A program made the position numbers and the translations under genes. A stretch of 61,033 bases of DNA, counting the filler, from Nemertoderma westbladi (lineage: Eukaryota; Animalia; Xenacoelomorpha), in NCBI GenBank assembly GCA_032718475.1. It is 3 parts of 3 records of this genome, joined end to end, with 100 filler letters (N's around TTAATTAATTAA, not from the genome) between each part and the next. Parts side by side here need not be neighbours in the genome. Positions count along the whole stretch, not along the records: positions 42,635 to 61,033 come from JAUCBJ010005807.1; 2 more parts are not named here. One strand, written 5' to 3'. Positions 8,702 through 61,033 of this stretch are shown piece by piece (within the stretch, counting starts at the first letter, position 1; each line of letters begins with the position of its first letter). The notes beneath the pieces are model-generated. The model did not search any database and was not told the DNA's origin. It worked only from the letters and a program-made list of their open reading frames with translations.

Positions 8702-8844
8702 TCCCCTGGTGATTGATTTTTAAATTATTTGTATAAATTATAGAAATAGAATAATCTTTTCCGTTAAAATTCCGTTAGCCTACGTACAACACAGGGTATA
8801 TTAATTAGCTGCGAGATGTACCGGGTAGGTGTTTAATATATATG

Positions 8845-21830: not shown

Positions 21831-22729
21831 ATATAGTGCGAAAAATTCTAGAATTAATTATCACTAATTTTTATTTATATAAATATACACTATTTCAACT
21901 TAAATGCTGGTCTATAAATTTATAACTCGTATTTAGGAGTAAATGATCTGAACATTATAAATTTTAACAATGCGATGGAATGAGACTAATTGGGGTCTAA
22001 TGAATGAGACCAGTCTGGGTTAGTTGTCATGGTGACTCGAAATGCAGATCTCTGTACTCTCTGAAATTAATAGCCTTAAAGTGTTTGTTTGCGATATGGA
22101 ATTTAAGCGTCTAAGAAATGAAAAAATATAACTGAAAAATTCTAACGGGTGCAACTCAATACACTAAAGGTAAAAAATCAGCTGTACTTCGTCAACTATA
22201 ATTAGCATACTATGACTTCACAACAGACTAACTATAAACTCACCGCTGACTTCTATGTCTGTGACGTCACCACCGCTCCCAGAGGCTGTTTCATATAAAA
22301 CGTAGTAGCGAATAATCTTAGTTCCCCCGTCGCTGAGTGGGGGGGACCAGTTAATATCCACCGAGTTGATATTGGTTGTATCAACAATCGCTTCTAAGTT
22401 GATTGGAGGATCGGGTGGGACAGCATCTACGGTGAAATTATATTAACCAATAGCAGGGCTCCAAATATAAATTCATTGGCAACACAAAATATCCTATTCC
22501 TACTTGCTAGGGCCTATTCTTTCAGTATCAATGAATGTACCGTATTATACGGTCACGCTGAGTTAGGCCTAACAGTAAGTCATTAAATAACAGGTGCAGA
22601 CAGCACAAAGATAGTACCGCACTGTACCGGTGTCACGCATTCTGTCGCTGCCTACATCTAGTAGGCCGGCCTACTTACTTATGCAGTCTGTAGGCTGCAG
22701 TAAACCACAAACTACATCAACATAGGTTG

Positions 22730-25800: not shown

Positions 25801-26737
25801 CCTGTACTTCCCACTCCGTCTCCCACACCCTCCACAGATCCTCCTGTAGGCCTACTTCCCACTCCGTCACCCACACCCTCCACAGACCTTCATGTACTTC
25901 CCAATCCTTCTCCCACATCCTCCACAGATCCTCCTGTAGGCCTACTTCCCACTCCGTCACCCACACCCTCCACAGACCTTCATGTACTTCCCAATCCTTC
26001 TCCCACATCCTCCACAGATCCTCTTGTACTTCCCACTCCGTCTCCCACACCCTCCACAGATCCTCTTGTACTTCCCATTCCGTCTCCCACACTCTCCACA
26101 GATCCTCCTGTAGGCCTACTTCCCACTCCGTCACCCACACCCTCCACAGACCTTCATGTACTTCCCAATCCTTCTCCCACATCCTCCACAGATCCTCTTG
26201 TACTTCCCACTCCTTCTCCCACACCCTCCACAGATCCCCCCATACCTCCCTCTCCGTCTCCCACACCCTCCACAGATCCTCCTGTATTTCCCACTCCGTC
26301 TCCCACACCCTCCGCAGATCCGCCTGTACTTCCTTCTCCGTCTCCCACACCCTCCACAGACCTTCCTGTACTTCCCACTCCGTCTCCCACACCCTCCACA
26401 GATCATCTTGTACTTCCCACTCCATCTCACACACCCTCCACAGATCCTCCTGTACTTCCAACTCCGTCTCCCAAACCCTCCACAAACCTTCCTGTACTTC
26501 CCACACAGTCTCCCACACCCTCCACAGATCATCTTGTACTTCCCACTCCGTCTCCCACACTCTCCACAGACCTTCCTGTACTTCCCACTCTGTCTCCCAC
26601 ACCCTGCACAGATCATCTTGTACTTCCCACTCCGTCTCCCACACTCTCCACAGATCCGCCTGTACTTCAGGCTCCGTCTCCCACATCCTCCACAGACCTT
26701 CCTGTACTTCCCACTACGTCTTCGACACCCTTCACAT

Positions 26738-29700: not shown

Positions 29701-30087
29701 TTAGGGTAGCGTATAATAATACAGCAAGGAGGTTATTCAAATTTCCATGGGGGTGCAGTGCTTCGTATATGTTTGGTAGCCTGGGGTTACCAAAGTTTAT
29801 TCATATTAGATCGGGGGCTATAACGTCTTTTTTAGGCCGTGCCTATAGTTGCCCGAATAGCCTCGTACAGGCAACTATTATGACCACTTGCTGCCATAGT
29901 AGAATCATGGGGATGTCTGTTTTAAGAAATTGGGCTGAATAATGGTCTTATTAATTTATTACGTGTACATACAATTGTGTTTCCTTACTACATTACTTTA
30001 CTCTACTTTTTGTTTGTGCTAGAACTATAGGCCATGTACGTTATGGGACACCAGGGAAACTTGGGGGTCCTGGAATAAACAATTATT
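26738..30087 (+). mobile_element. 5'-truncated LINE (CR1/L2 group, clade unresolved) with ORF1 C-terminus and intact ORF2
   Basis: ORF1 tail SSFVITC...LLDGNNWPKYSRIRPF (to 26982), then ORF2, then a 3' UTR with a stem-loop, AATAAA and a short (ATT)n tail. Both junctions fall in one satellite unit (CCTTCACAT|ATCCTCATG). Confidence 0.93.
27105..29942 (+). CDS. LINE ORF2: APE endonuclease plus reverse transcriptase, 945 aa, uninterrupted
   Basis: APE motifs SYNCN, LQEH, NIYLP, GDFNAD, LDH and DDHSP. RT motifs NYRGI, QFGFK, DSSKAYD, QGGILSP, YADD and KYLG. Confidence 0.95.
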   Translation: MANLNIVSYNCNSVRTLDSMNTIRELCNQSKDIIILQEHMLPVQDLSFLGSIDNRYLAVGISPVDYSAGLLRGRPFGGLAILYKRSIAAAIECVKYDDNRILGVKIKLHNDQYILLLNIYLPYQCKDNEAEFLDYLGRISAITDCANTPYCLVFGDFNADINTEFFTYVSDWCSDSNLHLCDVMNLPVGTDTYVSAAHGSRSWLDHAVCTGSLLPCINNFYVHDELSVDDHSPISCNISVPATLFQTTVTTSHAASSPNVRVFDWSKATPLQCQQYELTLSKLLSEIVVPLAALQCHNSKCTVHKCLVDNYHNNITKAMLDAAAQCIPIRRGGVGIDNSKNIPGWNEYLKDRYNYSRLMFRVWRSNGCPRQGNIFDEYMQTKLEFKRSMRNARRNVAKIKSDKLAESVYSTNQKEFWSNVRKLSGSSTPLSNKVGDAVGEENVCNLFKNKFENLYNSKQADVHKEFVEGALSDIKFSAEMIVKPIEIVFAVDKLVKGKATGPDNLSSEHYLHSPYNLKVHLANLFTIINVHGYIPPGVLVSNMIPLVKDKNDDITSIDNYRGIAISTVYSKVLELVYLERFCDKLFTSDSQFGFKKGSGTDLCIFTLKEMVQYYLDNDSAVYVCFIDSSKAYDLVNHYTLFRKLINRGVPLFYIRVLCMWYRSQVLFVKWGECISESFQVSNGTKQGGILSPYLYSVYIDDLSKELSNSGIGCQMSGVRINNLMYADDLAICSNSINGLQKLLHIFESYALEHCIKVNCKKTKCLFYFPKCAKNTDVGQVTINGLNIEVVSEVKYLGHILCSSTDDDFDIYNQLRSFYRRANIIIRRFGGCSVTVKIKLFRSFCTQVYCNYLWARSNYSSMVHNKFRVAYNNTARRLFKFPWGCSASYMFGSLGLPKFIHIRSGAITSFLGRAYSCPNSLVQATIMTTCCHSRIMGMSVLRNWAE

Positions 30088-32639
30088 ATATCCTCATGTA
30101 CTTCCAACTCCGTCTCTCACACTCTCCACAGATCCTCCTGTAGGCCTACTTCCCACTCCGTCACCCACACCCTCCACAGACCTTCATGTACTTCCCAATC
30201 CTTCTCCCACAGATCCTCTTGTACTTCCCACTCCGTCTCCCACACCCTCTACAGATCCTCCTGTACTTCCCACTCCGTCTCCCACACCCTCCATAGATCC
30301 CCCCATACCTCCCTCTCCGTCTCCCACAGCCTCCACAGATCGCCCATACCACCCACTCCGTCTCCCACACCCTCCACAGAATCTCATGTACTTCCCACAC
30401 CCTCCACAGATCCTTCCATACCTTCCACTCAATCTCCCAAACCCTTCACATATCCTCATGTACTTCCAACTCCGTCTCCCACACCCTCCACAGATCATCC
30501 TGTACTTCCCACTCCGCCTCCCACACCCTCCACAGATCCTCTTGTACTTCCCATTCCGTCTCCCACACCCTCCGCAGATCCTCTTGTACTTCCCACTCCG
30601 TCTCCCACACCCTCCATAGATCCTCCTATACTTCTCACTCCGTCTCCCACACCCTCCACAGATCCTCTTGTACATCCCATTCCGTCTCCCACACCCTCCA
30701 CAGATCCACTTGTACTTCCCACTCCATCTCCCACACCCTCCACAGATCTCCCCATACCTCCCACTCCGTCTCCCACACCCTCCACAGATCCTCCTGTACT
30801 TCCAACTCCGTCTCCCACACCCTACACAGACCTTCCTGTACTTCCCACTCCGTCTCCCACACCCTCCACAGATCATCTTGTACTTCCCACTCCGTCTCCC
30901 ACACCCTCCACAGATCATATTGTACTTCCCACTCCGTCTTCCACACCCTCCACAGATCCTCCTGTACTTCCAAATCCGTCTCCCACACCCTCCACAGACC
31001 TTCCTTTACTTCCCACACCGTCTCCCACACCCTCCACAGACCTTCCTGTACTTCCCACTCCGTCTCCCACACCCTCCACAGATCATCTTGTACTTCCCAC
31101 TCCGTCTCCCATACCCTCCACAGATCATCTTGTACTTCCCACTCCGTCTCCTACACCCTCCACAGACCTTCCTGTACTTCCAACTCTGTCTCCCACACTC
31201 TCCACAGATCCGCCTGTACTTCCGTCTCCGACTCCCACACCCTCCACAGACCTTCCTGTACTTCCCACTACGTCTTTCACACCCTTCACATATCCTCATG
31301 TACTTCCAACTCCGTCTCCCACACACTCCACAGATCGTCCTGTAGGCCTACTTCCCACTCCGTCACCCACACCCACCACAGACCTTCATGTACTTCCCAC
31401 TCCTTCTCCCACATCCTCCACAGATCCTCTTGTACTTCCCACTCCGTCTCCCACACCCTCCACAGATCCTCCTGTACTTCCCACTCCGTCTCGCACATCC
31501 TCCACAGATCCCCCCATACCTCCCACTCCGTCTCCCACACCCTCCATAGATCCCCCATACCACCCACACCGTCTCCCACACCCTCCACAGTATCTCCTGT
31601 ACTTCCCACACCCTCCACAGATCCTTCCATACCTCCCACTCAATCTCCCACACCCTTCACATATCCTCATGTACTTCCAACACCGTCTCCCACACCCTCC
31701 ATAGATCCTCCTGTACTTCTCACTCTGTCTCCCACACCCTCCACAGATCCTCTTGTACTTCCCATTCCGTCTCCCACACCCTCCACAGATCCACTTGTAT
31801 TTCCCACTCCGTCTCCCACACCCTCCACAGATCCCCCCTTACCTCCCACTCCGTCTCCCACACCCTCCACAGATCCTCTTGCACTTCCCATTCCGCCTCC
31901 CACACCCTCCACAGTTCTTCCTGTATTTCCCACTCCGTCTCCCACACCCTCCACAGATCCTACTGTATTTCCCACTCCGTCTCCCACACCCTCCGCAGAT
32001 CCGCCTGTACTTTCCGTCTCCCTCTCCCACACCCACCACAGACCTTCCTGTACTTCCCACTCCGTCTCCCACACCCTCCACAGATCATCTTGTACTTCCA
32101 CTCCGTTTCCCACACCCTCAACAGATCCTCCTGTATTTCCCACTCCGTCTCCCACACCCTCCACAGATCCTCCAGTACTTCTAACTCCGTCTCCCACACC
32201 CTCCACAGACCTTCCTGTACTTCCCACTCCGTCTCCCACACCCTCCACAGATCCTCATGTAGGCCTACTTTCCACTCCGTCTCCCACACCCTCCGTAGAT
32301 CCGTCTGTACTTCCCACTCCGTCTCCCACACCCTCCACAGATCTTCCTGTACTTCCCACGCCGTCTCCCACACCCTCCACAGATCCTCCTGTATTTCCCA
32401 CTCCGTCTCCCACACCCTCCACAGATCCTCTTGTACTTCCCACTCCGTCTCCCACACCCTCCACAGACCTTCCTGTACTTCCCACTCCGTCTCCACTCAC
32501 TCCTCCCACTGCTCCCCTTGCACCTCTACCTTTTCCCCTCTGACCTCCAACTGCTCCCCTTGCACCTCTATCATTTTCCCTCCCACCTCTAACTGATCCC
32601 CTCACAACTCTAATATTCTGCCCGCCCACCTCTAACACA

Positions 32640-40599: not shown

Positions 40600-41181
40600 C
40601 TAATCGGATAATTCTATTACGTCACGATCGACGCAGTTCCGTGTCTCATCGGCTTCGGCGTTTGGAACTTCGTCGTTCTGTTTATCATCGTCTTTGGAAT
40701 CATCAGCGGACTGATTTTCAGTTTCTTTTACGACCGCGGAATCTCGTTTCCGCTTCTCTGCCGCGTCTTTCTTATTCTTAACACCAGCTCTATAAGCTAG
40801 AGAGAGAATAATAAGTATTAAATATTAATAATTTATCCGAGAAGTAAGTTTAATTAATGTCATCCTTACGTTTACTGAATAGGTATAGAAAATAAAGCTA
40901 TAGATTAGATAAATTAGATAGATTAGATTAGTAGCTTAGATAATTATCATATATAAATTATGGCAAACTAACAAACCTTCTAAAGTTTGTGTTAATTTTG
41001 GGACGAAGTGATCAAAATCCATATCCACTAATCCATCAAAGATATCCTTGGCTGTTAACGTCTTTCGTTTATTTTTTTCAGCATGTGAACTGGCTAATCC
41101 AGCAGCATAGAGGATAAAGATACTAGCTGACCTTGTAATCGCAGTTCTCGCCTCTGCTGAAATTTTCACTCCTTCAGGCAA
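40600..41181 (-). CDS. POLE3: DNA polymerase epsilon subunit 3 / CHRAC17 (histone fold), exons 2-3; first coding exon not found
   Basis: Exons 41181-40977 (LPEGVKISAEARTAITRSASIFILYA...KRKTLTAKDIFDGLVDMDFDHFVPKLTQTLE) and 40796-40600 (AYRAGVKNKKDA..., acidic tail, TAG) join in phase. They match POLE3 [27 protein letters not shown]...EALEAYR as recalled. Confidence 0.9.
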
Positions 41182-41547
41182 CTGTATAAAATATAAGGCA
41201 ATATAATAATATTAATATTAATTGTAAAACGTATGCCAAAACTATGTAACGAAATAATTGTTTTGGGGTTTAACTTGGAAGCCTCCCCAAATATTTCATA
41301 TATAATTATATTTAAAATTATTTTCATGATCATGGTCTGGTCTGGTCATTCACTCGTCTTTACTGCAGTTAGAATTTTGTTTTCATGCAACACAGTTTAG
41401 AGTTCTAAATTACGAACTCACATAACATATTCTATAGGCCTAAGCAATATAATATTAACCTTAAAGCAATATAGTCAGCCAACTATTGGGGGGGGGGGGG
41501 GGGGGGGGGGGGGGCAGGTTGGAATTTATGTAGAGTTTGCTCAACAT

Positions 41548-42534: not shown

Positions 42535-42634
42535 NNNNNNNNNNNNNNNNNNNNNNNNNNNNNNNNNNNNNNNNNNNNTTAATTAATTAANNNNNNNNNN
42601 NNNNNNNNNNNNNNNNNNNNNNNNNNNNNNNNNN
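42535..42634. other. Assembly gap (100 nt with TTAATTAATTAA spacer)
   Basis: N-run with an artificial linker. Confidence 0.98.
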
Positions 42635-44882
42635 CTAAAGCAGATACTGAGCCATGCAATTTAAGCGAAAAGGATTTTAATGACTCGAAATCGCTTGAGT
42701 TAACATTTTGGACAGAAAAAAGCTGTTTAATATGGCTAGAAGCAATGAGATGTTTATCACCATAAATTCTGCGAATATCTCTCAATGTTTCATAATACAA
42801 TGTAGGGTCATCTATAGTAGCAGCTACACTATTACGAATCTCAGGGGATAATAAATTCCTAAGAATAGAGAGACGAATTGCGTCGTTTGGAATTCTATCA
42901 TGCACTAAAGCACGGAATGATGAAATAAAACCAGGCCATTTAATGGGTGAGCCATCAAATGGATCGATTGGTACCTTAAATAGAGCCTGCAAATCTATCG
43001 GACCATGACCACCAAAAAGCGCGTCACTTCTGTCATCGGAGTCAGGAGAGTCAATCCAATCATCTACACGCCCAGATACTTTGGATCTATTAACTGGACG
43101 AGATGAAAACGAAGGAAGGTCATATGTGGCCGACACTACTGGCTCACTAGCCGGCCCGTTAACAATGGGCCGACCCGGACACCTCTCAGGACCCCCAAAG
43201 GGTTGGCCGCTCGGGCGATACACAGGGTCAGACGCATACTCAGGACGCAAACCAGTCGCAGTACATGGCACACAATGTACACTATCATTGGTAGAGCCAC
43301 CATACATATAACTCACAGGGGCACACACTCCCTTCAATCCGCTAACCAAATTAGAATCAGGCGAGGCAAATCCACGGGGTACAAACTCAGGGCTAGATAA
43401 AGCCCAAGTGCTATTACAGTTACTTAAAGGTTTATAATTATTTATTGAATTACTATCAAATGGAAAAATAGTTCGCTGGTTAAAGCGGGGCAGAGTTGCC
43501 GTGGTTGGGTGTTCTACAGCTACAAAGTTTGGCACTGAAATATTTATAAAATTATTACCGGTGGTATCCTTATTGAGTACACGGAGCGGGACAGATTCTA
43601 CACTACTAATAATCGGTACCGGTAATGACTGCACAAATGAACCGCTGGAGATACTAAATATAACACCAGATTTTCTATTCATATTACAATCACTTACAGT
43701 ATTAGTAGCTAAGCTAGAATTACATTGAGACGGTTTAAACACTGTATCAATAATAGGACACGATTGACACGAACTCTGTAATATATTATTACTAGTAATT
43801 TCATTAGAACTATGAATTACCGGTACGTTACTAGGCGGGTAACGGGGTGACTCAACCGTGAGCTGTGTCACTGGATCGGATAACGGATGACCTGGGAAAG
43901 GATTCGATCTCCTGGATGCGAGAGGATAATTGGGAACCGGTTGGACCCCGCCGGCCCGGTTGGAGTCCTCATCCTCAAGGAAATCAGCGAGAACCCGTTC
44001 CCTGAGGTTCGCAACTCCGGCCTCCCTGTTTTCTATTTCCTCGGTACGAACAGACAACTCGAGCAGCTCCACCTCGTTCTGGAGGCGACGGAGCTGCTTC
44101 CTATTGTTGAGCGCTAGCTCCTTCTCGCGAAGCTCCCGATCCCTTTCGAACTGCTGGAGTTTTAATCTTTTCTCTTCCAGTTGCCGCTTCGAGGAGTTAA
44201 TACCACCTCCCGGGGATCGCGAGGAGGATACCTTGGATTTACTTCCACCAGCTGAAGAAGGTTCGCCTCTCCGGGAGGCGAGGTAACTTTCAGCTTCACT
44301 CCGACAGCGCCGATAACCCTCGCGGACGGCAGCCAACCATTCCTCCTCTATGGCTTTAGACTTAGAATCGGTTCCGGGATCCAGATACTGAAGACACTTA
44401 CTGTGAGATCGAACACAGTCGTCAAAGTCCTCGTTGAGTTCCCCTAGGAAGCCCTGGATTAAGGTGCGACTGCCACGGGAATCGACTAGAGAATGAAGCT
44501 TGGCAGCCAAACAAGTGAGCCTCCGCTTGGTATTGGCTCGAGTAATCTTCGCGTCTTTCAATCGGATGGGTCGCTGGCTGTCGGTAACTGCAGGGCTAGC
44601 CTCTAAATCATCCGCAGGATAGAACGCAATATCAGGGTCTAGGACCTCTAGGTCCGCGGTATCGAAACCCTCGAAACGCGTACCGGTATCACTCGAACCG
44701 GGTCGGGATTCCAAGGGTTCAAGTCGAGATTTATCCTCACCATCGGATGTCGTAGTTCCATCGCCGAGTCGAGGAGAGCTCAGACTACCATGAAACGAAC
44801 CATTCCCTTTGGCGGGGAGACCACCCGACGTGGCTCCACTAACGATGTCAGACTCCGCGTCCGACATATCGAGAGAAGGCAA
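42635..44882 (-). CDS. BEL/Pao gag polyprotein N-terminal part (DUF1759-type domain)
   Basis: About 750 stop-free codons: a coiled coil, then PFDGSPIKWPGFISSFRALVH...RLSILRNLL...YYETLRDIRRIYG. The start codon is uncertain. Confidence 0.85.
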
Positions 44883-45396
44883 CGGATAGTTGAACTGTCC
44901 AGCGATGGATTGTGGATACTCCGAGGGTAAGGATAATCTGTGACGTGGAAACCTTTAGACCAGGTTTCCCGGCATCGGAACCAGAATGTAAACCACAGAA
45001 TTTGGAATTGGCGTTGTGGTTTCGAGTTTCGTCGGGATCGTTATTTCATTAGGCCTATTTAATCTTGAAAAGACGTAGTTATAATTATGTCAAGTTACGT
45101 ATGTTGAAATAAGTTTTACATCAGTACATAGGGTATCTCCAGATCGGTTCTACTTATATGTTCAAACAAATACAAGAATTACTGGTGCAAAACACGTTAA
45201 GAATAAGGTAGAATAGGCCTACTAAGAATGATCAAATCCTATTGGCAGATACAGAAAGCAGGGCCATGGGGCAACCTTCCTACAGGGAAGCAGTGTAACA
45301 TAAACGGTGTGTATTGCACTAATATACCTAAGCTAGTATAACGATGGGCTAAACTACCAAGCGATAACCAGCAGGATTTAAGGGCAGTTTGTAACA
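42635..45396 (-). mobile_element. BEL/Pao LTR retrotransposon, 5' part (LTR, PBS, gag), truncated by the gap
   Basis: 410-bp TG...CA LTR at 45396-44987 and PBS TGGTTCCGATGCCGGGAA at 44983-44966. A long stop-free ORF follows. Confidence 0.88.
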
Positions 45397-47215: not shown

Positions 47216-50200
47216 ATTTTGAACCTTCCCGACGGGGCAACGACACAGAGCCAGAACGAAGTGGCGCCTACAGCCTTGTGTAACGGTCCAATGTTCGTTA
47301 CAAACGGCGACAAAGAGACTGGCATTAACAACATGGACACCTCCAGTTACACCGGTGAGGTAGACGAGTTAGACTCGGTGTCTCCGTTGGATACCGATGA
47401 AAGGCCAACCTCGGCTATAGACAGACCAGCATCAGCGTCTAGTCCGTACACAAGGTAACTACTAACTATCATTAGTTAATCAGTTGTTCTTATCTTTGTA
47501 TTAGGTATAGGACGACGTTTTTAAACCTTATCAATTGATATTCGTGTCGACAGCGGTTTGCGTCAAGGAGCGCCATCAAGTTTATTTCTATTCACTCTTT
47601 ACATTGATGTCCTAGTCGCCATGTTTGATTCACTAACGTCTACTAACACATACCTAAGAGCCTTGCATCTTCTCCTGTTCATGGACGATACTGCTATTTT
47701 AGCCGAGAACCGAGAGAGTTGTATAGAAAAGCTAAATATTTTAGATAAATTCTGTATGTCACATAATATGGTAATCAATGAGAAGAAGAGTAAGTTCATG
47801 GTCATAAATGGATTTATAGCTGAACAACCGTTGTTATGTGGAAGTGTACAAATAATTAATACAGATAAATATGTTTACCTGGGTGGTTTCTTCACACAGG
47901 ATGGTAGAATAGAATCAGTGATAAATTTACACGCAGGTGAAAGTAAAAAACAGGTAGCCAAGTTTGCAGCATTTTGTACCAGCAATCCAAATATGCCTTT
48001 CTGTCTAAAGAAAAAGGTGCTTGACTGTGCTGTAACGGCAGCGATACTGTATTCCAGCGATACCTGGTTAGCAATACGGGGGAGAAAGGAAATTGAAAAG
48101 ATATACAGTATAGTAAACTGATAAAAATACTTTTGGGCGTTAAAACAACAACACCGAGTGTGCTGTGCTATACAGAGATTGGTATGGCTGAGGTAGGATC
48201 CGTCATCGACAATAATATTAGAAACTCTATCCGAAGACTCAAGAAATCGTGGCACCGAGAAGATCCTGCACACATCGCGTATCATCTGGCAAAAACAGGG
48301 AACACCCGCGTTTTTAAATATCTAAATAAGTTAGAACTGACGGAAGGTAATATAATAGCTAGAAATATTAATGGTTTGAAGAGTAGAATTTAAAGATGCT
48401 GCACATATCCACACTAAATTGGCAACTTACCTGGAAATAAACCCTAATCTAACTATCCACAAGGTATATAATCAGCAGAAACCGTACATACACGAGCAGA
48501 ACAGGATCGATTTTACGAGATTTCGTTTAAGCGCGCATCGCTTAAGGGTAGAGACAGGAAGGTGGACACGTGTACCTATAGAGAAGAACGAGTCTGCAAA
48601 TGTGATGGATCGTCGGTACAGAACGAATTACACGTGTTATCGGGTTGTTCACTGACGAAAGATATATTGGGGGGAAAATCCTACTCCACGGTAGCAGAAT
48701 TTATGTTAATAAACAACGGGGAAAGAATCGTCAAAATAATTTCTGAGATTTTCAAGGAACTGCAAAGACACTAACTCGAGAAAATAACTGGGACATTTTC
48801 AAGTTACTAATTTGAAGGGACTAATTTTAGATCTAAAGTTATTTAGTTTCACTAAGTTTATATTTCATAATATGTAATTTCAAATATTTAATGATAATAA
48901 TGTCTTTTGTCGGATATTAGTCAATAAACATATTGAATCGAATAATTTACATTAGTTACTATATATATTAGCACCTATAATTTTGGCCGAAACCGAAACT
49001 AATGATTTAGGAGGACCATTACCCACAATTAAAGTGAAATTTAGGAATTTTAAATACAAATTTCATATATTTCTGTAGTTTGATAAAAGAGCATTCAAGT
49101 AGTGATATCGGTTTTCGCCCATGTGAAGAATACCAGGATTTCACTTTTCGGTCGACTTTTTATTTTAATTTTAGATATGAAGATTTTTTATTTTTTTAAA
49201 TTTATCTTTATTAAGTGTTTTATAGCGCTTATTTCTGTCTTATAACCTGTACATACATATACTAATTCGTTTATTGTTTTGGTTAGATTCAGCACTTCTG
49301 TAACCTGTGTTTTTGGTGAAAACCTGGTACTCTTTACATGGGGGTAACTGCAAAGTGAAATATAACGGCAGAAAGTCTGGTATTCTTCACAAGGGCCTCG
49401 GTTTTCACCATCGAGTGATTTTTACTCTCAATTTTCTAAAATTTTTAAAATTTTTTTTTCTAGATTTGAAAATTTCGAAAATTTTCACTTTTCACTTTTT
49501 GATATAAAAAAATTATTGAATTTTTAGATAATTTTGGTAATTTTCAATATTTTCATTGATTAAATATGAAAAAAGAAAAAAATTACCCCAGGGTACGGCA
49601 GAGTCCAAAAATGCACATAATATTTAAACAAGAACAAGAACGTATATGGCTGATATTCATATTCAAGACTCTCTATATAACAAGGTTTTTCTCTGTTTAT
49701 ATATTTGGACATTTTCATCACTGAATTCCCTAACTACTATTTTATTTTTCACTTAATTTTCATCTTTAGTTTGTGATTATTGGTTTTGTTATTTTTAATA
49801 TTTTATTTATTTGCTTCCTTTGGCTTATCTTTATGTGGTTATTTGCGTCAGTTGAGTCCTTGAATTGCGTTCAGAGTCACCTATCCTCCCTATTTTTACT
49901 ATTGTGTCAATGAGTTCATGTGTGTCGTATGAAATTAATTAATAGGTAGATAATGTATCACTTTATTTCCCTCTATAGCGATCGTTCTTCGTTAACTGGT
50001 CAGGAAATGGTGACTTTACGATCAACGTTCATCTCCAACGACATCGCGGCCCGTTCGTCCGACGCCACATCGCCTATCGGTCCGAGCGTCCTTCCGACCG
50101 ATATCGGGTACATTTCCGGCGCCCACCACGGCCCGACCAGTCCCCCGACCCAGCAGGGCCACGTCGACTCCCCTACATCCGTTCCGACTTCCTCCTCCCC

Positions 50201-53200
50201 CGGTAAGGGTTCATGGAGTTCCTCGCATTCCAACCCGCCCGAGGGATTCACGCCCCACAGTGTCAGTCCGGAGAAACCTGCTGAACCCGACAGGTTCGTA
50301 CCGGAACCGTCGATGACGTCACCCATGATGACGTCACCGAGCGGCGTGACGGATGTAGCCGTCGAGCCGGACTACCTTCAACCACTCCCGGATAGACTCA
50401 ATCAAGTTAATCTCTACGAAGAAGAATCTCCAGTCGAGATCGTTTCTCAGGAATTCGATGTAGAGGGCCGAACGGAATCGGCGAACCCAGTGGAGGATGA
50501 AGGATCGCCGAATCCCGAGAAATCGTCGCCGAAAAAACCGGACGACGCGACGGACGGCGTCGCCAAGACGACCGCCGCGGCGCCCAGCGCCCGTCGCTGG
50601 TCCGAACTGTTCAAGAACGAGCGCGACTGCAACAACGCGATCGTTATCTACCCGTCGGCGTACCGCGAGGATCAGCGGCCCGCGGCGGTCCGGAACCAAC
50701 CCGCGAACCGGCGCCAAGGCAGCGCGACTCTGAGTCCGGCCGAGGCCTCGCAGGATCTATTCGGTCGGGACATCGGCGTCTATCTGAGTCGCAGTAAACT
50801 CAACCACCGGCCGGTCCCGTTCAACCCTCGCGGACTCGTTAATCGCGGTAACCTATGTTACGTTAACGCCACCCTCCAGGCCCTCCTCGCGTGTCCGCCA
50901 TTCTTCCATCTCATTCGCGACCTTCCTCGTCTGCCCCCTAGCGGTCGTGGCCGCACCGCCACTCCGTTGATAGACGCCATCAAGCGTTTCGCCTGGGAGT
51001 TTTATATCCCGTCGCTACGCAACAATCCGGCGCCGCGTAGCAACGAGTTGGTCCTGGGTAAACCGTTCGAGCCGGATTACCTCTACGGGATGTTGGCGCA
51101 CATCGGGTTGGCCGACAGTCGGCAGGAGGACGCCGAGGAGTACCTTTCCGCGCTGCTGGTGGCGCTGCACGAGGAGATGGTCGTGTGTCTGGGGCTCGCG
51201 GGCGTTGAGCAGGCGCCCGCCACGCCCATGGGCGTCCTGGACGGGGGCGACCCCGGCGATTGGGAGCAGGTCAGTGGGCGTGGCAACCGAGCCATGCTCA
51301 CCCGCTCTACCAATCTCTCCCACTCGCCCATCGTCGATATATTTGTTGGTCGCATTCGCTCAACTCTTCACAAACAAGGTCAGTCGCCTAATATTTCATG
51401 CGAATTTTGAATTTATTGTATCTGACAAAACATTGTGTGAAATAATAAGAATATGATCTCGGTGATCTTTTCCTTTTCTGTGCTGAACACATTTATATAA
51501 TAAATATGAACAATATGTCCATTTATTGTAAGCTATGCAGTAACTTAAAATGAAATCCCTAGAAAACAAATCCAGAAATAAAATATAAAAATTTACTAAC
51601 AAACAACCATCGTACGGAAGGCTTAAATATAATTACACGTTCTTCGAAAAATGATAAAACAAAATTATAACATGGTACATCTTGTCCTGGAATATAGTGT
51701 CGTTATACAGGTACCTGCCCCAAAAGCCCCTACCCCCCACCACCAAAAAAAATTATAAGTCTTACTGAGATTACATGAAAATTGAAACAGAAATAGTTTT
51801 ACCTCCCTCCTCCTCCTTATGGGTGAGCCAGAATTTTATTTTTGCTTTCAATCTTTAGCTACAAACGTTTGGAAAAAGTGTCTCCGGCGATATTGCACCA
51901 GTCGCTGCAGTTATTCTACAACCTTATAGTGATTCGTATTATTGGTTTGGTACTGATAGAACGCTGATCGTTCAAGGATTCCAAATATGTAACACAAACT
52001 GAATTTCGTCGTCTTATTAAATTACATTTCATGTTCATAAAGCAAAAATTGCAAAAACGGCTAAGAAATGACGGAGAAAAATTATATAATTGTCTTCATC
52101 GCATTTACCGATATCGCGATATATCGGAGCCGGTATCTTCTACTCCAGATATCTCGAAAACTAAGCAAGATATGGGAAAACGGTTTACATATTTGGATTC
52201 AGCATGAGATTCTGCATTAGATAGGATATGTTTCAAAAATTCGACTTTTGGTCAGAAAATGCGCTACCCCCCCCCCCCCCCCACCCCCCCCCCCCCCCTA
52301 ATTATGTTTAGGAACCATTTATTATATTTTCTAGGTTCGAAAGAAACTGCGAATCTCGAGCCGTTTATTACTCTTCAACTGGATATCCATGACAATAACA
52401 TAGTTCGTCTTAAAGACGCCCTGGAGTCGTTCTTTGGGCCGGAGGAATTAGAAGGGTTCACCTCATCCAAAACAAGCAAGGTTTGTCTAGTTAGAAGCCC
52501 GTTAGGACTTCTTATTGTAAAAGTATTCACTATCTATATTTATTTATTTATTTAAATGTATTTCAGGTGAATTCTCCTCTGAAACTATAGCTCGTCCGTC
52601 AATGAATGTTATATCAATCCGACACAACTCAACCCCAGGATGTGGAAAAAAAGATTCGAAAAAATTTTTTAATGTGTCTTTTTATTTCAAAAATTAGCCC
52701 CTTAACACGAAAATTGCTGCTGGAGCTCATGAGGGCCTAGTAAGCTACTACTATTGATTGAATGAATAGGCCCAAACTGCAGAGAAATACATTACTTGCC
52801 AAGTTTATTACTCACTCACTATCTCTCAGCAACAATAAGCAAACATCAAAAACTGTTAGTTTGTAATTTATTACCCCGCCAGCTGAATAGCTCTTCCCCA
52901 GTGAATCCTATGGGAATATCTATAAGGTTACTCACTGTTATGTTAGGCCAGCTGATTGAATTATAACCACTTGGCCGTTCAAATGTTTTATAGTTTAATA
53001 ATAATGACATTTAGGGGGTTGTATTACTCTCCCAGATTGGGGCCCATCCTCTTACGTTTGTCTATGGATGGTCTTCTTAAAGCCAGGTTGCTGGATTTTC
53101 TGGTTCTACTAAACTTAAAAACTATGGAGTGGAGTAGGCCCACATAGGGTACATTTTGTTGGAAAATCATCCTCACTTAATAAGGAAAAATTAAATAAAA

Positions 53201-53635
53201 TACAAATTATTCGTAAAAATGCAATAAAATTTCGACCGAAAAGTGGAAACCTGGTATTAATTGTTCACATGGTGCAAGTTTTCGTCTTAAAAATATCGTT
53301 TGTTTTAATTCCTTTTTTCTTTTCACTGTGGATTTGTCAGTGCAATGCGATATAACTATATCTGGACAACTATTAATTATTGTCAATAACAACTAACTAT
53401 AACTGTCCCCATCTTTGATTGATCATTTTACAACTGATTCTCTCTTTAGGAGGTGGAAGCTTGCCGTAAACTCAGTCTCGATTTACTGCCCCCAGTTCTC
53501 ATTATCCATCTCAAGAGATTTCATTACGACCCAGAAAAAGGCAGGATGATTAAAATCGATAAACCAATTCAGTTTGATATGGCGTTGGAGATTCCAAAAG
53601 ATTGTCTCAGCCAATCACTAAAGCGGGATCCCATG
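47216..53635 (+). CDS. USP10: Ubiquitin carboxyl-terminal hydrolase 10 (USP10/Ubp3 family), partial
   Basis: Phase-consistent exons 47216-47454, 49979-51378, 52335-52480 and 53450-53635. Motifs include W.ELF, the Cys box PRGLVNRGNLCYVNATLQALLACPPF, QEDAEEYL..LL..LHEEM, WEQV, EPFITLQLDI and LPPVLIIHLKRF. The His-box exon lies beyond the window and the 5' exons were not identified. Confidence 0.92.
47540..48945 (+). mobile_element. 5'-truncated, disrupted LINE (RTEX-like) in a USP10 intron
   Basis: GLRQGAPSS, FMDD, YVYLG, then after a stop and frameshifts RFRLSAHRLRVETGRW and the C-terminal zinc knuckle C.C...QNELHVL..C. AATAAA at about 48924. Confidence 0.85.
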
Positions 53636-56600
53636 GTGAGTTCACTCAGCCAATCACTAAAGCGGGATCCCATGGTAAGTCCACTCAGCCAATCACTAAA
53701 GGGAGATCCCATGGTAAGTTCACTCAGCCAATCACTGAAGGGGGATCCCATGGTGAATTCACTCAGCCAATCACTAAAGCGGGATCCCATGGTGAGTTCA
53801 CTCAGCCAATCACACACTAAAGGGGTATCCAATGGTGAGTTCACTCAGCCAATCACTAAAGCGGGATCCCATGGTGAGTTCACTCAGCCAATCACACACT
53901 AAAGGGGTATCCAATGGTGAGTTCACTCAGCCAATCACTAAAGCGGGATCCCATGGTAAGTTCACTCAGCCAATCACTAAAGGGAGATCCCATGGTAAGT
54001 TCACTCAGCCAATCACTAAAGCGGGACCCCATGGTAAGTTCACTCAGCCAATCACTAAAGCAGGATCCCATGGTAAGTTCACTCAGCCAATCACTAAAGG
54101 GAGATCCCATGGTGAGTTCACTCAGCCAATCACTAAAGCGGGATCCCATGGTAAGTTCACTCAGCCAATCACTAAAGCGGGATCCCATGGTGAGTTTACT
54201 CAGCCAATCACTAAAGCGGGATCCCATGGTAAGTTCACTCAGCCAATCACTAAAGGGAGATCCCATGGTGAGTTCACTCAGCCAATCACTAAAGCGGGAT
54301 CCCATGGTTAGTTCACTCAGCCAATCACACACTAAAGGGGGATCCCATGGTGAGTTCACTCAGCCAATCACTAAAGGGGGATCCCATGGTGAGTTCACTC
54401 AGCCAATCACTGAAGGGGGATCCCATGGTGAGTTCACTCAGCCAATCCATGAAGGGGGATCCCCTGGTGAGTTCACTCAGCCAATCACTAAAGCGGGATC
54501 CCATGTTAAGTTCACTCAGCCAATCACTAAAGTGGGACCCCATGGTGAGTTAACTCAGCCAATCACTAAAGCGGGATCCCATGGTAAGTTCACTCAGCCA
54601 ATCACTAAAGGGGGATCCCATGGTGAGTTCACTCAGCCAATCACTAAAGGGGGATCCCATGGTGAGTTCACTCAGCCAATCACTGAAGGGGGATCCCATG
54701 GTGAATTCACTCAGCCAATCACTAAAGGTGGATCCATGGTGAGTTCACTCAGCCAATCACTAAAGAGGGATCCCATGGTGAGTTCACTCAGCCAATCACT
54801 AAAGGGGGATCCATGGTGAGTTCACTCAGCCAATCACTAAAGGGGGATCCCATGGTGAGTTCACTCAGCCTATCACTAAAGGGGGATCCATGGTGAGTTC
54901 ACTCAGCCAATCACTAAAGGGGGATCCCATGGTGAGTTCACTCAGCCAATCACTAAAGGGGGATCCCATGGTGAGTTCACTCAGCCAATCACTAAAGGGG
55001 GATCCCATGGTGAGTTCATTCAGCCAATCACTAAAGGGGGATCCATGGTGAGTTCACTCAGCCAATCACTAAAGCGGGATCCCATAGTGAGTTCACTCAG
55101 CCAATCACTAAAGCGGGATCCCATGGTGAGTTCACTCAGCCAATCACTAAAGGGGGATCCATGGTGAGTTCACTCAGCCAATCACTAAAGGGGGATCCCA
55201 TGGTGAGTTCACTCACCCAATCACTAAAGGGGGATCCATGGTGAGTTCACTCAGCCAATCACTAAAGCAGGATCCCATGGTGAGTTCACTCAGCCAATCA
55301 CTAAAGCGGGATCCCATGGTGAGTTCGCTCAGCCAATCACTAAAGGGGGATCCCATGGTGAGTTCACTCAGCCAATCACTAAAGGGGGATCCCATGGTGA
55401 GTTCACTCAGCCAATCACTAAAGGGGGATCCCATGGTGAGTTCATTCAGCCAATCACTAAAGGGGGATCCATGGTGAGTTCACTCAGCCAATCACTAAAG
55501 CGGGATCCCATGGTGAGTTCACTCAGCCAATCACTAAAGCGGGATCCCATGGTGAGTTCACTCAGCCAATCGCACACTAAAGGGGATCCCATGGTGAATT
55601 CACTCAGCTAATCACTAAAGGGGGATCCATGGTGAGTTCACTCAGCCAATCACTAAAGCGGGATCCCATGGTGAGTTCACTCAGCCAATCACACACTAAA
55701 GGGGGATCCCATAGTGAGTTCACTCAGCTAATCACTAAAGGGGGATCCATGGTGAGGTCACTCAGCCAATCACTAAAGCGGGATCCCATGGTGATTTCAC
55801 TCAGCCAATCACACACTAAAGGGGGATCCCATGGTGAGTTCACTCAGCTAATCACTAAAGGGGAATCCATGGTGAGTTCACTCAGCCAATCACTAAAGCG
55901 GGATCCCATGCTGAGTTCACTCAGCCAATCACTAAAGCGGGATCCCATGGTGAGTTGACTCAGCCAATCACTAAAGCAGGATCCCATGGTAAGTTCACTC
56001 AGCCAATCACTAAAGGGAGATCCCATGGTGAGTTCACTCAGCCAATCACTAAAGCGGGATCCCATGGTAAGTTCACTCAGCCAATCACTAAAGGGGGATC
56101 CCATGGTGAGTTCACTCAGCCAATCACTAAAGGGGGATCCCATGGTGAGTTCACTCAGCCAATCACTGAAGGGGGATCCCATGGTGAATTCACTCAGCCA
56201 ATCACTAAAGGTGGATCCATGGTGAGTTCACTCAGCCAATCACTAAAGAGGGATCCCATGGTGAGTTCACTCAGCCAATCACTAAAGGGGGATCCATGGT
56301 GAGTTCACTCAGCCAATCACTAAAGGGGGATCCCATGGTGAGTTCACTCAGCCTATCACTAAAGGGGGATCCATGGTGAGTTCACTCAGCCAATCACTAA
56401 AGGGGGATCCCATGGTGAGTTCACTCAGCCAATCACTAAAGGGGGATCCCATGGTGAGTTCACTCAGCCAATCACTAAAGGGGGATCCCATGGTGAGTTC
56501 ATTCAGCCAATCACTAAAGGGGGATCCATGGTGAGTTCACTCAGCCAATCACTAAAGCGGGATCCCATAGTGAGTTCACTCAGCCAATCACTAAAGCGGG

Positions 56601-59600
56601 ATCCCATGGTGAGTTCACTCAGCCAATCACTAAAGGGGGATCCCATGGTGAGTTCACTCAGCCAATCACTAAAGGGGGATCCATGGTGAGTTCACTCAGC
56701 CAATCACTAAAGGGGGATCCCATGGTGAGTTCACTCAGCCAATCACTAAAGGGGGATCCATGGTGAGTTCACTCAGCCAATCACTAAAGCAGGATCCCAT
56801 GGTGAGTTCACTCAGCCAATCACTAAAGCGGGATCCCATGGTGAGTTCGCTCAGCCAATCACTAAAGGGGGATCCCATGGTGAGTTCACTCAGCCAATCA
56901 CTAAAGGGGGATCCCATGGTGAGTTCACTCAGCCAATCACTAAAGGGGGATCCCATGGTGAGTTCATTCAGCCAATCACTAAAGGGGGATCCATGGTGAG
57001 TTCACTCAGCCAATCACTAAAGCGGGATCCCATGGTGAGTTCACTCAGCCAATCACTAAAGCGGGATCCCATGGTGAGTTCACTCAGCCAATCGCACACT
57101 AAAGGGGATCCCATGGTGAGTTCACTCAGCTAATCACTAAAGGGGGATCCATGGTGAGTTCACTCAGCCAATCACTAAAGCGGGATCCCATGGTGAGTTC
57201 ACTCAGCCAATCACACACTAAATGGGGATCCCATAGTGAGTTCACTCAGCTAATCACTAAAGGGGGATCCATGGTGAGGTCACTCAGCCAATCACTAAAG
57301 CGGGATCCCATGGTGATTTCACTCAGCCAATCACACACTAAAGGGGGATCCCATGGTGAGTTCACTCAGCTAATCACTAAAGGGGAATCCATGGTGAGTT
57401 CACTCAGCCAATCACTAAAGCGGGATCCCATGCTTAGTTCACTCAGCCAATCACTAAAGCGGGATCCCATGGTGAGTTGACTCAGCCAATCACTAAAGCG
57501 GGATCCCATGGTAAGTTCACTCAGCCAATCACACACTAAATGGGGATCCCATGGTGAGTTCACTCAGCTAATCACTAAAAGGGGATCCATGGTGAGTTCA
57601 CTCAGCCAATCACTAAAGCGGGATCCCATAGTGAGTTCACTCAGCCAATCACTAAAGCGGGATCCCATGGTGAGTTCACTCAGCCAATCACTAAAGCGGG
57701 ATCCCATGGTGAGTTCACTCAGCCAATCACTAAAGCGGGATCCCATGGTGAGTTCACTCAGCCAATCACTAAAGCGGGATCCCATGGTGAGTTGACTCAG
57801 CCAATCACTAAAGCGGGATCCCATGGTAAGTTCACTCAGCCAATCACACACTAAAGGGGGATCCTATGGTGAGTTCACTCAGCCAATCACTAAAGCGGGA
57901 TCCCATGGTGAGTTCACTCAGCCAATCACTTAAGCGGGATCCCATGGTGAGTTCACTCAGCCAATCACTTAAGCGGGATCCCCCTGGTGAGTTCACTCAG
58001 CCAATCACACACTAAATGGGGATCCCATGGTGAGTTCACTCAGCTAATCACTAAAGGGGGATCCATAGTGAGTTCACTCAGCCAATCACTAAAGCGGGAT
58101 CCCATGGTGAGTTCACTCAGCCAATCACTAAAGCGGGATCCCATGGTGAGTTCACTCAGCCAATCACTAAAGCGGGATCCCATGGTGAGTTCACTCAGCC
58201 AATCACTAAAGCGGGATCCCATGGTGAGTTGACTCAGCCAATCACTAAAGCGGGATCCCATGGTGAGTTGACTCAGCCAATCACTAAAGCGGGATCCCAT
58301 GGTAAGTTCACTCAGCCAATCACACACTAAAGGGGGATCCTATGGTGAGTTCACTCAGCCAATCACTTAAGCGGGATCCCATGGTGAGTTCACTCAGCCA
58401 ATCACTTAAGCGGGATCCCCCTGGTGAGTTCACTCAGCCTATCACTAAAGCGGGATCCCATGGTGAGTTCACTCAGCCAATCACTAAAGCGGGATCCCAT
58501 GGTGAGTTCACTCAGCCAATCACTAAAGCGGGATCCCATGGTGAGTTCACTCAGCCAATCACTAAAGCGGGATCCCATGGTGAGTTGACTCAGCCAATCA
58601 CTAAAGCGGGATCCCATGGTAAGTTCACTCAGCCAATCACACACTAAAGGGGGATCCTATGGTGAGTTCACTCAGCCAATCACTAAAGCGGGATCCCATG
58701 GTGAGTTCACTCAGCCAATCACTTAAGCGGGATCCCATGGTGAGTTCACTCAGCCAATCACTTAAGCGGGATCCCCCTGGTGAGTTCACTCAGCCAATCA
58801 CACACTAAATGGGGATCCCATGGTGAGTTCACTCAGCTAATCACTAAAGGGGGATCCATGGTGAGTTCACTCAGCCAATCGCTAAAGCGGGATCCCATAG
58901 TGAGTTCACTCAGCCAATCACTAAAGCGGGATCCCATGGTGAGTTCACTCAGCCAATCACTAAAGCGGGATCCCATGGTGAGTTCACTCAGCCAATCACT
59001 AAAGCGGGATCCCATGGTGAGTTCACTCAGCCAATCACTAAAGCGGGATCCCATGGTGAGTTGACTCAGCCAATCACTAAAGCGGGATCCCATGGTAAGT
59101 TCACTCAGCCAATCACACACTAAAGGGGGATCCTATGGTGAGTTCACTCAGCCAATCACTAAAGCGGGATCCCATGGTGAGTTCACTCAGCCAATCACTT
59201 AAGCGGGATCCCATGGTGAGTTCACTCAGCCAATCACTTAAGCGGGATCCCCCTGGTGAGTTCACTCAGCCTATCACTAAAGCGGGATCCCATGGTGAGT
59301 TCACTCAGCCAATCACTAAAGCGGGATCCCATGGTGAGTTCACTCAGCCAATCACTAAAGCGGGATCCCATGGTGAGTTCACTCAGCCAATCACTAAAGC
59401 GGGATCCCATGGTGAGTTGACTCAGCCAATCACTAAAGCGGGATCCCATGGTAAGTTCACTCAGCCAATCACACACTAAAGGGGGATCCTATGGTGAGTT
59501 CACTCAGCCAATCACTAAAGCGGGATCCCATGGTGAGTTCACTCAGCCAATCACTTAAGCGGGATCCCATGGTGAGTTCACTCAGCCAATCACTTAAGCG

Positions 59601-61033
59601 GGATCCCCCTGGTGAGTTCACTCAGCCTATCACTAAAGCGGGATCCCATGGTGAGTTCACTCAGCCAATCACTAAAGCGGGATCCCCATGGTGAGTTCAC
59701 TCAGCCAATCACTAAAGCGGGATCCCCCTGGTGAGTTCACTCAGCCAATCACTAAAGCGGGATCCCATGGTGAGTTCACTCAGCCAATCACTAAAGCGGG
59801 ATCCCATGGTGAGTTCACTCAGCCAATCACTAAAGCGGGATCCCATGGTGAGTTGACTCAGCCAATCACTAAAGCGGGATCCCATGGTGAGTTGACTCAG
59901 CCAATCACTAAAGCGGGATCCCATGGTAAGTTCACTCAGCCAATCACACACTAAAGGGGGATCCTATGGTGAGTTCACTCAGCCAATCACTTAAGCGGGA
60001 TCCCATGGTGAGTTCACTCAGCCAATCACTTAAGCGGGATCCCCCTGGTGAGTTCACTCAGCCTATCACTAAAGCGGGATCCCATGGTGAGTTCACTCAG
60101 CCAATCACTAAAGCGGGATCCCATGGTGAGTTCACTCAGCCAATCACTAAAGCGGGATCCCATGGTGAGTTCACTCAGCCAATCACTAAAGCGGGATCCC
60201 ATGGTGAGTTGACTCAGCCAATCACTAAAGCGGGATCCCATGGTAAGTTCACTCAGCCAATCACACACTAAAGGGGGATCCTATGGTGAGTTCACTCAGC
60301 CAATCACTAAAGCGGGATCCCATGGTGAGTTCACTCAGCCAATCACTTAAGCGGGATCCCATGGTGAGTTCACTCAGCCAATCACTTAAGCGGGATCCCC
60401 CTGGTGAGTTCACTCAGCCAATCACACACTAAATGGGGATCCCATGGTGAGTTCACTCAGCTAATCACTAAAGGGGGATCCATGGTGAGTTCACTCAGCC
60501 AATCGCTAAAGCGGGATCCCATAGTGAGTTCACTCAGCCAATCACTAAAGCGGGATCCCATGGTGAGTTCACTCAGCCAATCACTAAAGCGGGATCCCAT
60601 GGTGAGTTCACTCAGCCAATCACTAAAGCGGGATCCCATGGTGAGTTCACTCAGCCAATCACTAAAGCGGGATCCCATGGTGAGTTGACTCAGCCAATCA
60701 CTAAAGCGGGATCCCATGGTAAGTTCACTCAGCCAATCACACACTAAAGGGGGATCCTATGGTGAGTTCACTCAGCCAATCACTAAAGCGGGATCCCATG
60801 GTGAGTTCACTCAGCCAATCACTTAAGCGGGATCCCATGGTGAGTTCACTCAGCCAATCACTTAAGCGGGATCCCCCTGGTGAGTTCACTCAGCCTATCA
60901 CTAAAGCGGGATCCCATGGTGAGTTCACTCAGCCAATCACTAAAGCGGGATCCCATGGTGAGTTCACTCAGCCAATCACTAAAGCGGGATCCCATGGTGA
61001 GTTCACTCAGCCAATCACTAAAGCGGGATCCCA
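53606..61033 (+). repeat. 39-bp satellite (about 190 units, running off the window) made of the USP10 exon end plus 5' splice site
   Basis: Unit CTCAGCCAATCACTAAAGCGGGATCCCATG|GT(G/A)AGTTCA, with variants of 38, 40 and 43 bp and higher-order duplications. Confidence 0.98.

What the first reader, a model, noticed from the sequence alone, without database searches (positions are those of the whole stretch)
53606..61033. A satellite made of an amplified splice junction: about 190 tandem 5' splice sites in USP10
Seen: the first unit starts inside the USP10 exon (...EIPKDC-LSQSLKRDPM). Each unit is 30 exonic nt plus 9 intronic nt containing a consensus donor, ATG|GTGAGT or ATG|GTAAGT. The unit is 39 nt and stop-free in the USP10 frame (VSSLSQSLKRDPM). 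Donors at 53636, 53675, 53714, 53753 and 53792 are in frame, and the sixth unit has a +4 insertion that shifts the frame (stop at 53902). Known: this position corresponds to the variable loop just before the His box of USP domains, and duplicated donors compete, often favouring the intron-proximal one. Inference: the gene either makes a ladder of isoforms with 0-4 extra 13-aa inserts plus NMD-targeted products, or needs a mechanism to ignore about 185 decoy U1 sites. That would be a tunable repeat-based splicing system or a U1 snRNP sponge.
Basis: partly seen in the sequence, partly recalled or inferred. Interest (0 to 1): 0.88.

Follow-up and report, generated by a model that had tools for sequence, protein, structure and literature searches.

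The report
Splice-donor minisatellite in animal USP10 intron
A 39-base piece covering the end of a USP10 exon and its splice signal has been copied at least 188 times into the next intron, yet the one assembled RNA available is spliced at the first copy, so this is likely an unusually long but otherwise ordinary example of a repeat type already known from human and lancelet genes.

Summary
The array is real: 188 complete units plus one cut by the window end (53606-61033). Each unit copies the last 30 nt of a USP10 exon plus 9 nt of intron; 185 of 188 keep GT and 176 keep GTRAGT. DNA runs from two samples show the tandem unit at high depth, apparently with different lengths and variants. One run proved to be spliced RNA. 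Its 877-nt contig leaves the exon at the first donor (53635|53636) and continues in phase 0 into the next exon, restoring the normal USP10 loop length. The dominant product therefore has no insert. Contigs drop rare variants, so minor isoforms are not excluded, and that individual's array was not seen. The layout is a known class: human F7, CBS, IFI6, LMNB2 and PDGF minisatellites and amphioxus 'mirages', where the first donor dominates. No sign of selection on donors or frame was found. Only the size stands out (at least 188, roughly 360-580 units estimated, versus 3-25 in the papers read). The isoform ladder and U1 sponge are unsupported.

The parts
49979..51378 (+). USP10 large exon with the Cys box (UCH domain start); donor AAG|GTCAGT
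   Evidence: Pfam PF00443 E 2.4e-14; best homologues named USP10; RNA contigs cover it and join 51378 to 52335 over GT..AG; start read from the AG
52335..52480 (+). USP10 exon, 146 nt; donor AAG|GTTTGT
   Evidence: X4 contig joins 51378>52335 and 52480>53450; boundaries
53450..53635 (+). USP10 exon, 186 nt, phase 0 to 0, ending ...LSQSLKRDPM; its last 30 nt are the exonic part of unit 1
   Evidence: PF00443 E 1.3e-06; translation; RNA contig
53636..53641 (+). Authentic 5' splice site (donor 1, ATG|GTGAGT), the one used in the RNA contig
   Evidence: X4 contig stops matching after 53636 (a G that fits both sides) and goes on into the next exon
53606..61033 (+). Junction-spanning minisatellite, at least 188 units of 38-43 nt (mode 39), running past the window end
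   Evidence: tandem 'goes back 39' joints in DNA runs X2 and X3
53645..53800 (+). Units 2-5: four in-frame pseudo-donors (53675, 53714 GTAAGT; 53753 GTGAAT; 53792 GTGAGT) that would add 13, 26, 39 or 52 residues if used
   Evidence: use not seen in the RNA contig
53900..53902 (+). First in-frame stop on read-through, after the +4 insertion in unit 6
   Evidence: ORF 53450..53902; units table
54554..57480 (+). Higher-order block of about 38-39 units present twice (units about 25-62 and 63-99)
   Evidence: 15 identical units in a row at offset 38; autocorrelation 0.56 at lag 39; coordinates
57520..61033 (+). Higher-order region with a 41-unit (20+21) period
   Evidence: 32 identical units in a row at offset 41; autocorrelation 0.85 at lag 41

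Best explanation
This is a minisatellite made from the last 30 bases of a USP10 exon plus the first 9 bases of its intron; the assembled mRNA is spliced at the first copy, and the remaining copies are likely silent pseudo-donors that likely grew and change length by ordinary neutral repeat turnover. Shown: the unit's make-up, the real donor at 53635|53636, the phase-0 join to the next exon, and tandem copies in DNA of two samples. Inferred: (1) a 39-nt tandem duplication across the junction founded the array, because the 30 exonic bases are needed to give the normal loop length; (2) slippage and unequal exchange expanded it, because blocks of 38-41 units recur; (3) the first donor wins by position, since it is the first transcribed and gives the shortest exon (186 nt against 225, 264, 303 and more), as in the F7 minigene work, and not by sequence or structure; (4) a small leak to donors 2-3, as in CBS and IFI6, is possible and would be largely without function.
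For: X4 contig 26/12 (877 nt, depth 236.7) joins two GT..AG introns, leaves the reference after 53636 and reads on as AEVRRKNYRL (hand translation of the loose end), matching the ...TYRLFAVVYHHG strand of homologues. It is the 1 of 1 X4 record laid on 53400-53644. A donor-2 product would repeat exactly one 31-mer. The DNA contigs of the exon end there, at 53634-53635, in 3 of 3 DNA runs, while the RNA contig passes through; inference: no abundant alternative path. HLKxF-to-YxL distance is 50 with donor 1, 41-49 in 58 of 59 motif-matched homologues (1 mis-anchored row dropped; 32 of 91 lacked a motif), and would be 63 with donor 2. Donor positions mutate like the rest of the unit: 9 substitution types in 9 nt against 28 in 30 nt, p=0.85. 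Five frame-keeping units at the start have chance 0.19 at the array-wide rate. Donor 1 is neither stronger (147 of 187 downstream donors equal it in U1 duplex energy, none exceed it) nor more accessible (rank 13-45 of 55), which leaves position. Length and variants seem to differ between samples: one k-mer at about 140-220 copies in X2, against a ceiling of about 105-150 units in X3; X3 has GTGAGTCCA-type units that are absent from the window. The window holds another large minisatellite, and arrays fill 22% of it. Literature: PMC1557585, PMC3087553.
Against: The RNA evidence is one assembled contig from one sample (S3), and contigs drop rare variants, so minor ladder products cannot be counted. 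No DNA of S3 was seen, so that individual may carry a shorter array or none. X4 is listed only as 'DNA?'; that it is RNA is read from its splice joints. The F7 work is in mammalian cells with 5-12 copies, not hundreds. CBS and IFI6 do use two extra donors. Contig depths are rough and the tool says they are not copy numbers. Substitution counts treat related units as independent and have little power.
Confidence: 0.8

Rival explanations
1. Functional isoform ladder: donors 2-5 are used at a meaningful level and give USP10 forms with 13-52 extra residues before the His-box strand, while later donors feed decay, so the array tunes enzyme form or dose.
For: Donors 2-5 are in frame and stop-free. 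Donors 2 and 3 (GTAAGT) are predicted slightly more accessible than donor 1, and 8 of the 20 GTAAGT donors lie in the first 20 units. CBS and IFI6 minisatellites use two extra donors (PMC1557585 introduction).
Against: The assembled mRNA has no insert and is unbroken at the branch point. None of 58 homologues has a loop over 49 residues. The in-frame run is compatible with chance (p about 0.19), and any junction-spanning unit of 39 nt is in frame by arithmetic.
Confidence: 0.1
2. U1 sponge or splicing-factor condensate: the nascent intron loads U1 on hundreds of donors and seeds a local compartment or slows splicing and elongation, like chicken LL2R transcripts.
For: Donor density is 47 GTRAGT per 2 kb, against 'more than 5' predicted donors per 2 kb in LL2R, whose nascent RNA gathers snRNPs (bioRxiv 10.64898/2026.03.19.712899, section 29; the counting methods differ). 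There is no AATAAA on either strand of the array. Most array donors pair with U1 better than the gene's two other donors (-9.2 against -6.5 and -6.0 kcal/mol).
Against: It appears to be a single locus inside a spliced intron (one 5' flank seen). A few hundred sites on a few nascent transcripts are small against roughly 10^6 U1 per cell (recalled mammalian figure), so global titration is implausible. Donors are not protected from mutation. Length seems to vary several-fold between samples. Local folding predicts most donors paired in a stem.
Confidence: 0.05
3. The array acts at DNA level as a cluster of CCAAT (NF-Y-type) boxes that affects chromatin or transcription; the donor is incidental.
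For: 170 matches to YRRCCAATSR in the array against 6 in the other 53.6 kb, both strands (consensus recalled).
Against: The motif is simply the exon's Ser-Gln-Ser codons copied with the unit. 17 units break the CCAAT core. No functional data.
Confidence: 0.04
4. Assembly artefact or dead gene copy.
For: Long identical higher-order blocks (32 units at offset 41) could partly be mis-assembly, and the window ends inside the array.
Against: Tandem joints and depth hundreds of times single-copy in X2, and tandem joints in the independent sample X3; a spliced mRNA contig with the next exon in frame.
Confidence: 0.01

Closest known systems
Human F7 intron-7 37-bp VNTR (Borensztajn et al. 2006, PMC1557585; parts 1-4 of 6 read, plus passages)
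   Same: The first unit spans the exon-intron boundary, so the donor is repeated in the intron; unit size is similar; length is polymorphic; the most upstream donor is used.
   Different: F7 has 5-9 copies with 4 exonic nt. This one has at least 188 copies with 30 exonic nt, higher-order blocks, and an in-frame first five units; it lies in a non-mammalian animal.
Human CBS intron-13 31-bp VNTR, IFI6 (6-16), LMNB2 and PDGF minisatellites (seen only as described in the introduction and reference list of PMC1557585; original papers not read)
   Same: Donor-repeating minisatellites of 10-25 copies. LMNB2 and PDGF use only the first donor; CBS and IFI6 also use the next two.
   Different: About ten times or more as many copies here; minor donor use not measurable with contigs.
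Amphioxus 'mirage' minisatellites (Adh3, globins BflGb6 and BflGb9; PMC3087553, passages read)
   Same: [quoted passage not shown]
   Different: The globin cases have 2-6 units of about 150-160 bp (Adh3 units 10-72 bp). This one is far longer in copy number.
Chicken LL2R tandem-repeat RNA condensate (bioRxiv 10.64898/2026.03.19.712899; abstract and sections 22, 29, 33 read)
   Same: Transcribed tandem array rich in donor sites and poor in poly(A) signals.
   Different: LL2R is a non-coding 160-kb unit of 446-bp repeats, retained on lampbrush loops and shared across Galliformes. This is a 39-bp repeat inside a spliced coding intron, with no evidence of retention or conservation.

Membership tests
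Junction-spanning (F7-type / mirage) minisatellite | Head-to-tail array of 10-100 bp units | tested here: met
   Period 39, 188.7 copies, 92% matches
Junction-spanning (F7-type / mirage) minisatellite | First unit spans a real exon-intron boundary | tested here: met
   Spliced contig leaves the exon at 53635|53636 inside unit 1
Junction-spanning (F7-type / mirage) minisatellite | Splice signal reiterated in the intron | tested here: met
   185 of 188 units keep GT, 176 keep GTRAGT
Junction-spanning (F7-type / mirage) minisatellite | Authentic (first) site dominates; normal mRNA is made | tested here: met
   1 of 1 RNA contig uses donor 1 in phase 0; one sample, array status of that sample unseen
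Junction-spanning (F7-type / mirage) minisatellite | Length polymorphism between individuals | tested here: inconclusive
   Depth ratios and unit variants differ between X2 and X3, but contig depth is not a copy number
Junction-spanning (F7-type / mirage) minisatellite | Pseudo-sites become active one by one when upstream ones are inactivated | not testable with these tools
   Needs minigenes as in PMC1557585
USP10 orthologue | UCH domain with closest named relatives being USP10 | tested here: met
   PF00443 in two exons; top named animal hits are called USP10 or carry the generic UCH name, best 38% identity, E 1.2e-41; no tree built
LL2R-type architectural repeat RNA | Excess of donor sites and lack of poly(A) signals | tested here: met
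   47 GTRAGT per 2 kb, no AATAAA
LL2R-type architectural repeat RNA | Retained nascent RNA with snRNP-rich condensate at the locus | not testable with these tools
   Needs cytology or CLIP
LL2R-type architectural repeat RNA | Separate non-coding transcription unit | tested here: not met
   The array lies in an intron that is spliced out of a coding mRNA

The most novel reading that the evidence does not exclude
With about 47 donors per 2 kb over 7 to perhaps 20 kb, this length-variable intron is a natural U1-loading array: its nascent RNA seeds a local splicing-factor compartment or delays intron removal, so that array length tunes USP10 output and a minor +13n-residue ladder between individuals.
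Probability: 0.07. Interest if true: 0.65.

Novelty: new member of a known kind. Interest (0 to 1): 0.24.

Why it matters
If the ordinary reading holds, this is an extreme natural test of 5' splice-site choice by position: the first donor appears to win over at least 147 equally strong copies, against 4-25 in the published human cases read here. It extends the F7/mirage class in scale but not in kind. It would matter more only if array length were shown to change USP10 splicing kinetics, isoforms or nuclear organisation.

Tried and rejected
No whole genome is held for this window, so the array's far end, the next exon's genomic place and the genome-wide rate of such arrays could not be checked. 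The run search listed no RNA holder on record; this is no evidence either way, and X4 proved to be spliced. No X4 contig other than the mRNA lay on unit 1 (220.5 observed = 220.5 expected from that contig alone); absence of cover is not counted as evidence. Reads were laid only up to the end of unit 1, so donors 2-5 were tested only indirectly. Structure masking as the reason for donor-1 choice was rejected: donor 1 ranks 13-45 of 55 for accessibility, and the unit trimer folds no better than shuffles (RNA z -0.96, DNA z -0.66). Selection for or against donors was not detected. A recalled human UPF3A example was not found in 2 searches and is not used. Turri 1995 (PMC306954) is not held. PMC10078293 passages showed no junction-spanning case. 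PDB sequence search gave only distant USP7/9X/15/8/11 matches covering residues up to 53 of 62, so nothing on the loop. The expectation of tens to hundreds of donor-spanning arrays per genome uses assumed array and intron numbers and is only illustrative. Earlier-findings look-ups by place and by sequence were empty.
Full report
Observation. Tandem Repeats Finder reports one array at 53606-61033, period 39, 188.7 copies, 92% matches. Splitting it gives 188 complete units and a 28-nt piece cut by the window end, 48 distinct sequences in all; 133 units are 39 nt, 24 are 38, 19 are 43, 10 are 40 and 2 are 42. Of 188 units, 185 keep GT at the donor position, 176 GTRAGT and 158 ATG|GTRAGT. Donors 53636, 53675, 53714, 53753 and 53792 are in phase 0. 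The fourth is GTGAAT. Unit 6 has 4 extra bases, and read-through ends at a stop at 53900-53902. No 14-mer of the unit occurs upstream in the window.

The gene. Two exons hit Pfam UCH, and the best named homologues are animal USP10 at up to 38% identity. The exons seen are 49979-51378, 52335-52480 and 53450-53635. The organism is an animal by these hits; I did not identify it further, and no genome is held.

RNA. The run search listed no run on record as RNA. When laid, X4 turned out to be spliced: one 877-nt contig (depth 236.7) joins 51378 to 52335 and 52480 to 53450 across GT..AG introns, joints absent from the 3 DNA runs. The same contig matches to 53636, a G that fits both sides, and continues for 322 more letters that are not array. 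The first 30 of them, with that G, translate by hand to AEVRRKNYRL, which lines up with the ...TYRLFAVVYHHG strand before the His box in homologues. So the next exon exists, joins in phase 0, and the first donor is used. It was the 1 of 1 X4 record laid on 53400-53644. A donor-2 product would repeat one 31-mer. The DNA contigs of the exon stop at that place (53634-53635) in X1, X2 and X3, whereas the RNA contig runs through. I infer that no alternative path is abundant in X4, assuming 31-mer assembly. Limits: contigs drop rare variants, this is one sample, and no DNA of that sample was seen.

Protein context. From HLKxF to the YxL strand the window's protein has 50 residues with donor 1. Of 91 homologues, 59 matched both motifs; one was mis-anchored and dropped, and the other 58 give 41-49. 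This shows that the ten codons in the unit are the gene's own loop and not captured satellite, and that +13 (63) or more has no parallel among these homologues.

DNA of other samples. X2 (near-identical to the window, possibly its source) and X3 (another sample, same as X1) both show 'goes back 39' joints and unit depth far above single copy, so the array is not an assembly artefact. Rough depth ratios put two X2 contigs at 1.9-3.1 times their count in the window, about 360-580 units in all. X3 gives 23-33 unit-to-unit junctions and a ceiling of 105-152. X3 also has unit ends (GTGAGTCCA, GTGCTTTTA) found 0 times in the window. These depths are not copy numbers, so polymorphism is likely but not shown. 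In X3 the only loose end before the unit is another unit's tail, and one 1560-nt contig starts with a unit and runs on, likely the 3' flank (its letters were not seen); this suggests a single locus.

Array history and selection. Blocks of 38-39 units recur in units 25-100 and a 41-unit period dominates units 101-188, with 32 identical units in a row, as expected from unequal exchange (part could be mis-assembly). Substitution types are as frequent in the 9 donor bases as elsewhere (9 of 37, p=0.85). Five frame-keeping units at the start have chance 0.19 given 53 frame-changing units in 188. Another minisatellite of 42 bp, split by a LINE-like element, lies in the same window, and arrays make up 22% of it.

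Mechanism of donor choice. With a recalled U1 5' end, 147 of 187 downstream donors pair as well as donor 1 and none better. Local folding does not expose donor 1 more than the others (rank 13-45 of 55), and the repeat folds no better than shuffled units. What sets donor 1 apart is position: it is first transcribed and gives a 186-nt exon, against 225, 264, 303 and 342 nt for donors 2-5. In the F7 system, 50 constructs showed that the most upstream donor is used whatever the repeat number (up to 12), that inactivating it moves splicing to the next, that exon skipping grows with distance, and that only perfect consensus sites compete (PMC1557585). Applying this here is inference.

Known systems. 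PMC1557585 lists F7, CBS, IFI6, LMNB2 and PDGF as genes with minisatellites whose first unit spans an exon-intron boundary; two of them also use the next two donors. Amphioxus 'mirages' are the invertebrate equivalent and reportedly do not disturb splicing (PMC3087553 passages). The array meets the testable defining features of this class. Its copy number exceeds those in the papers read (up to 25). I make no claim that a larger case is not in print; the searches were made, and no supplements were read. This scan's own notes hold 26 findings with the same words in at least 15 genomes, 8 shown, with 12-63 copies where stated; these are unchecked AI notes and only suggest that the layout is common. 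The closest precedent for the sponge idea is chicken LL2R, whose donor-rich nascent RNA gathers snRNPs (bioRxiv 10.64898/2026.03.19.712899). The array here is denser in donors (47 per 2 kb by a simple motif count) but sits in a spliced coding intron, and nothing here shows retention or conservation.

Verdict. A real, very long, probably polymorphic splice-donor minisatellite of a known kind, with the first donor used in the one mRNA seen. Neutral first-donor reading 0.80, functional ladder 0.10, U1 sponge or condensate 0.05, CCAAT cluster 0.04, artefact 0.01. Interest 0.24.

Noticed in passing
window 22845-26736 and 30090-32494: A 42-bp minisatellite (about 92 + 58 copies) reading as [14 protein letters not shown] repeats on + with several frame changes; the two parts are separated by a LINE-like element.
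   Followed up: partly
window about 26740-30085 (+), ORF 27087-29942: LINE-like retroelement with an uninterrupted 951-aa endonuclease plus reverse-transcriptase frame (PF03372, PF00078), lying between the two halves of the 42-bp array.
   Followed up: partly
window 53606-61033: 170 copies of a CCAAT-box consensus (YRRCCAATSR, recalled) against 6 in the rest of the window, and 12 TGACTCA (AP-1-type) sites in a unit variant.
   Followed up: partly
window 53627-53653 and each unit junction: Each GTGAGT donor can fold with the start of the next unit into a 7-bp stem with a UUCA loop; overall folding is not better than shuffles.
   Followed up: yes
window 7904-8719 (-): Enkurin-family ORF of 271 aa in a single stretch without introns (PF13864).
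   Followed up: no
window 40936-41211 (-): Histone-fold (CBFD_NFYB_HMF) exon, POLE3/CHRAC17-like by recall.
   Followed up: no
window 1960-5260 and 22218-22442 (-): Pieces of an NCAM-like cell-adhesion gene (FN3 hit; transmembrane-like stretch); the family name is my recall.
   Followed up: no
window 42579-44954 (-): DUF1759 ORF of about 790 aa, typical of BEL/Pao-type LTR retroelement gag by recall.
   Followed up: no
window 51680-52340 and 52470-53260: High-copy interspersed repeats in two USP10 introns, with summed depth thousands of times single copy in all three DNA runs.
   Followed up: no
window 10016-10453 (-) and 15394-15768 (-): Two related short ORFs sharing a motif like LGxVRHDLNWxDxP, without a Pfam hit.
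   Followed up: no
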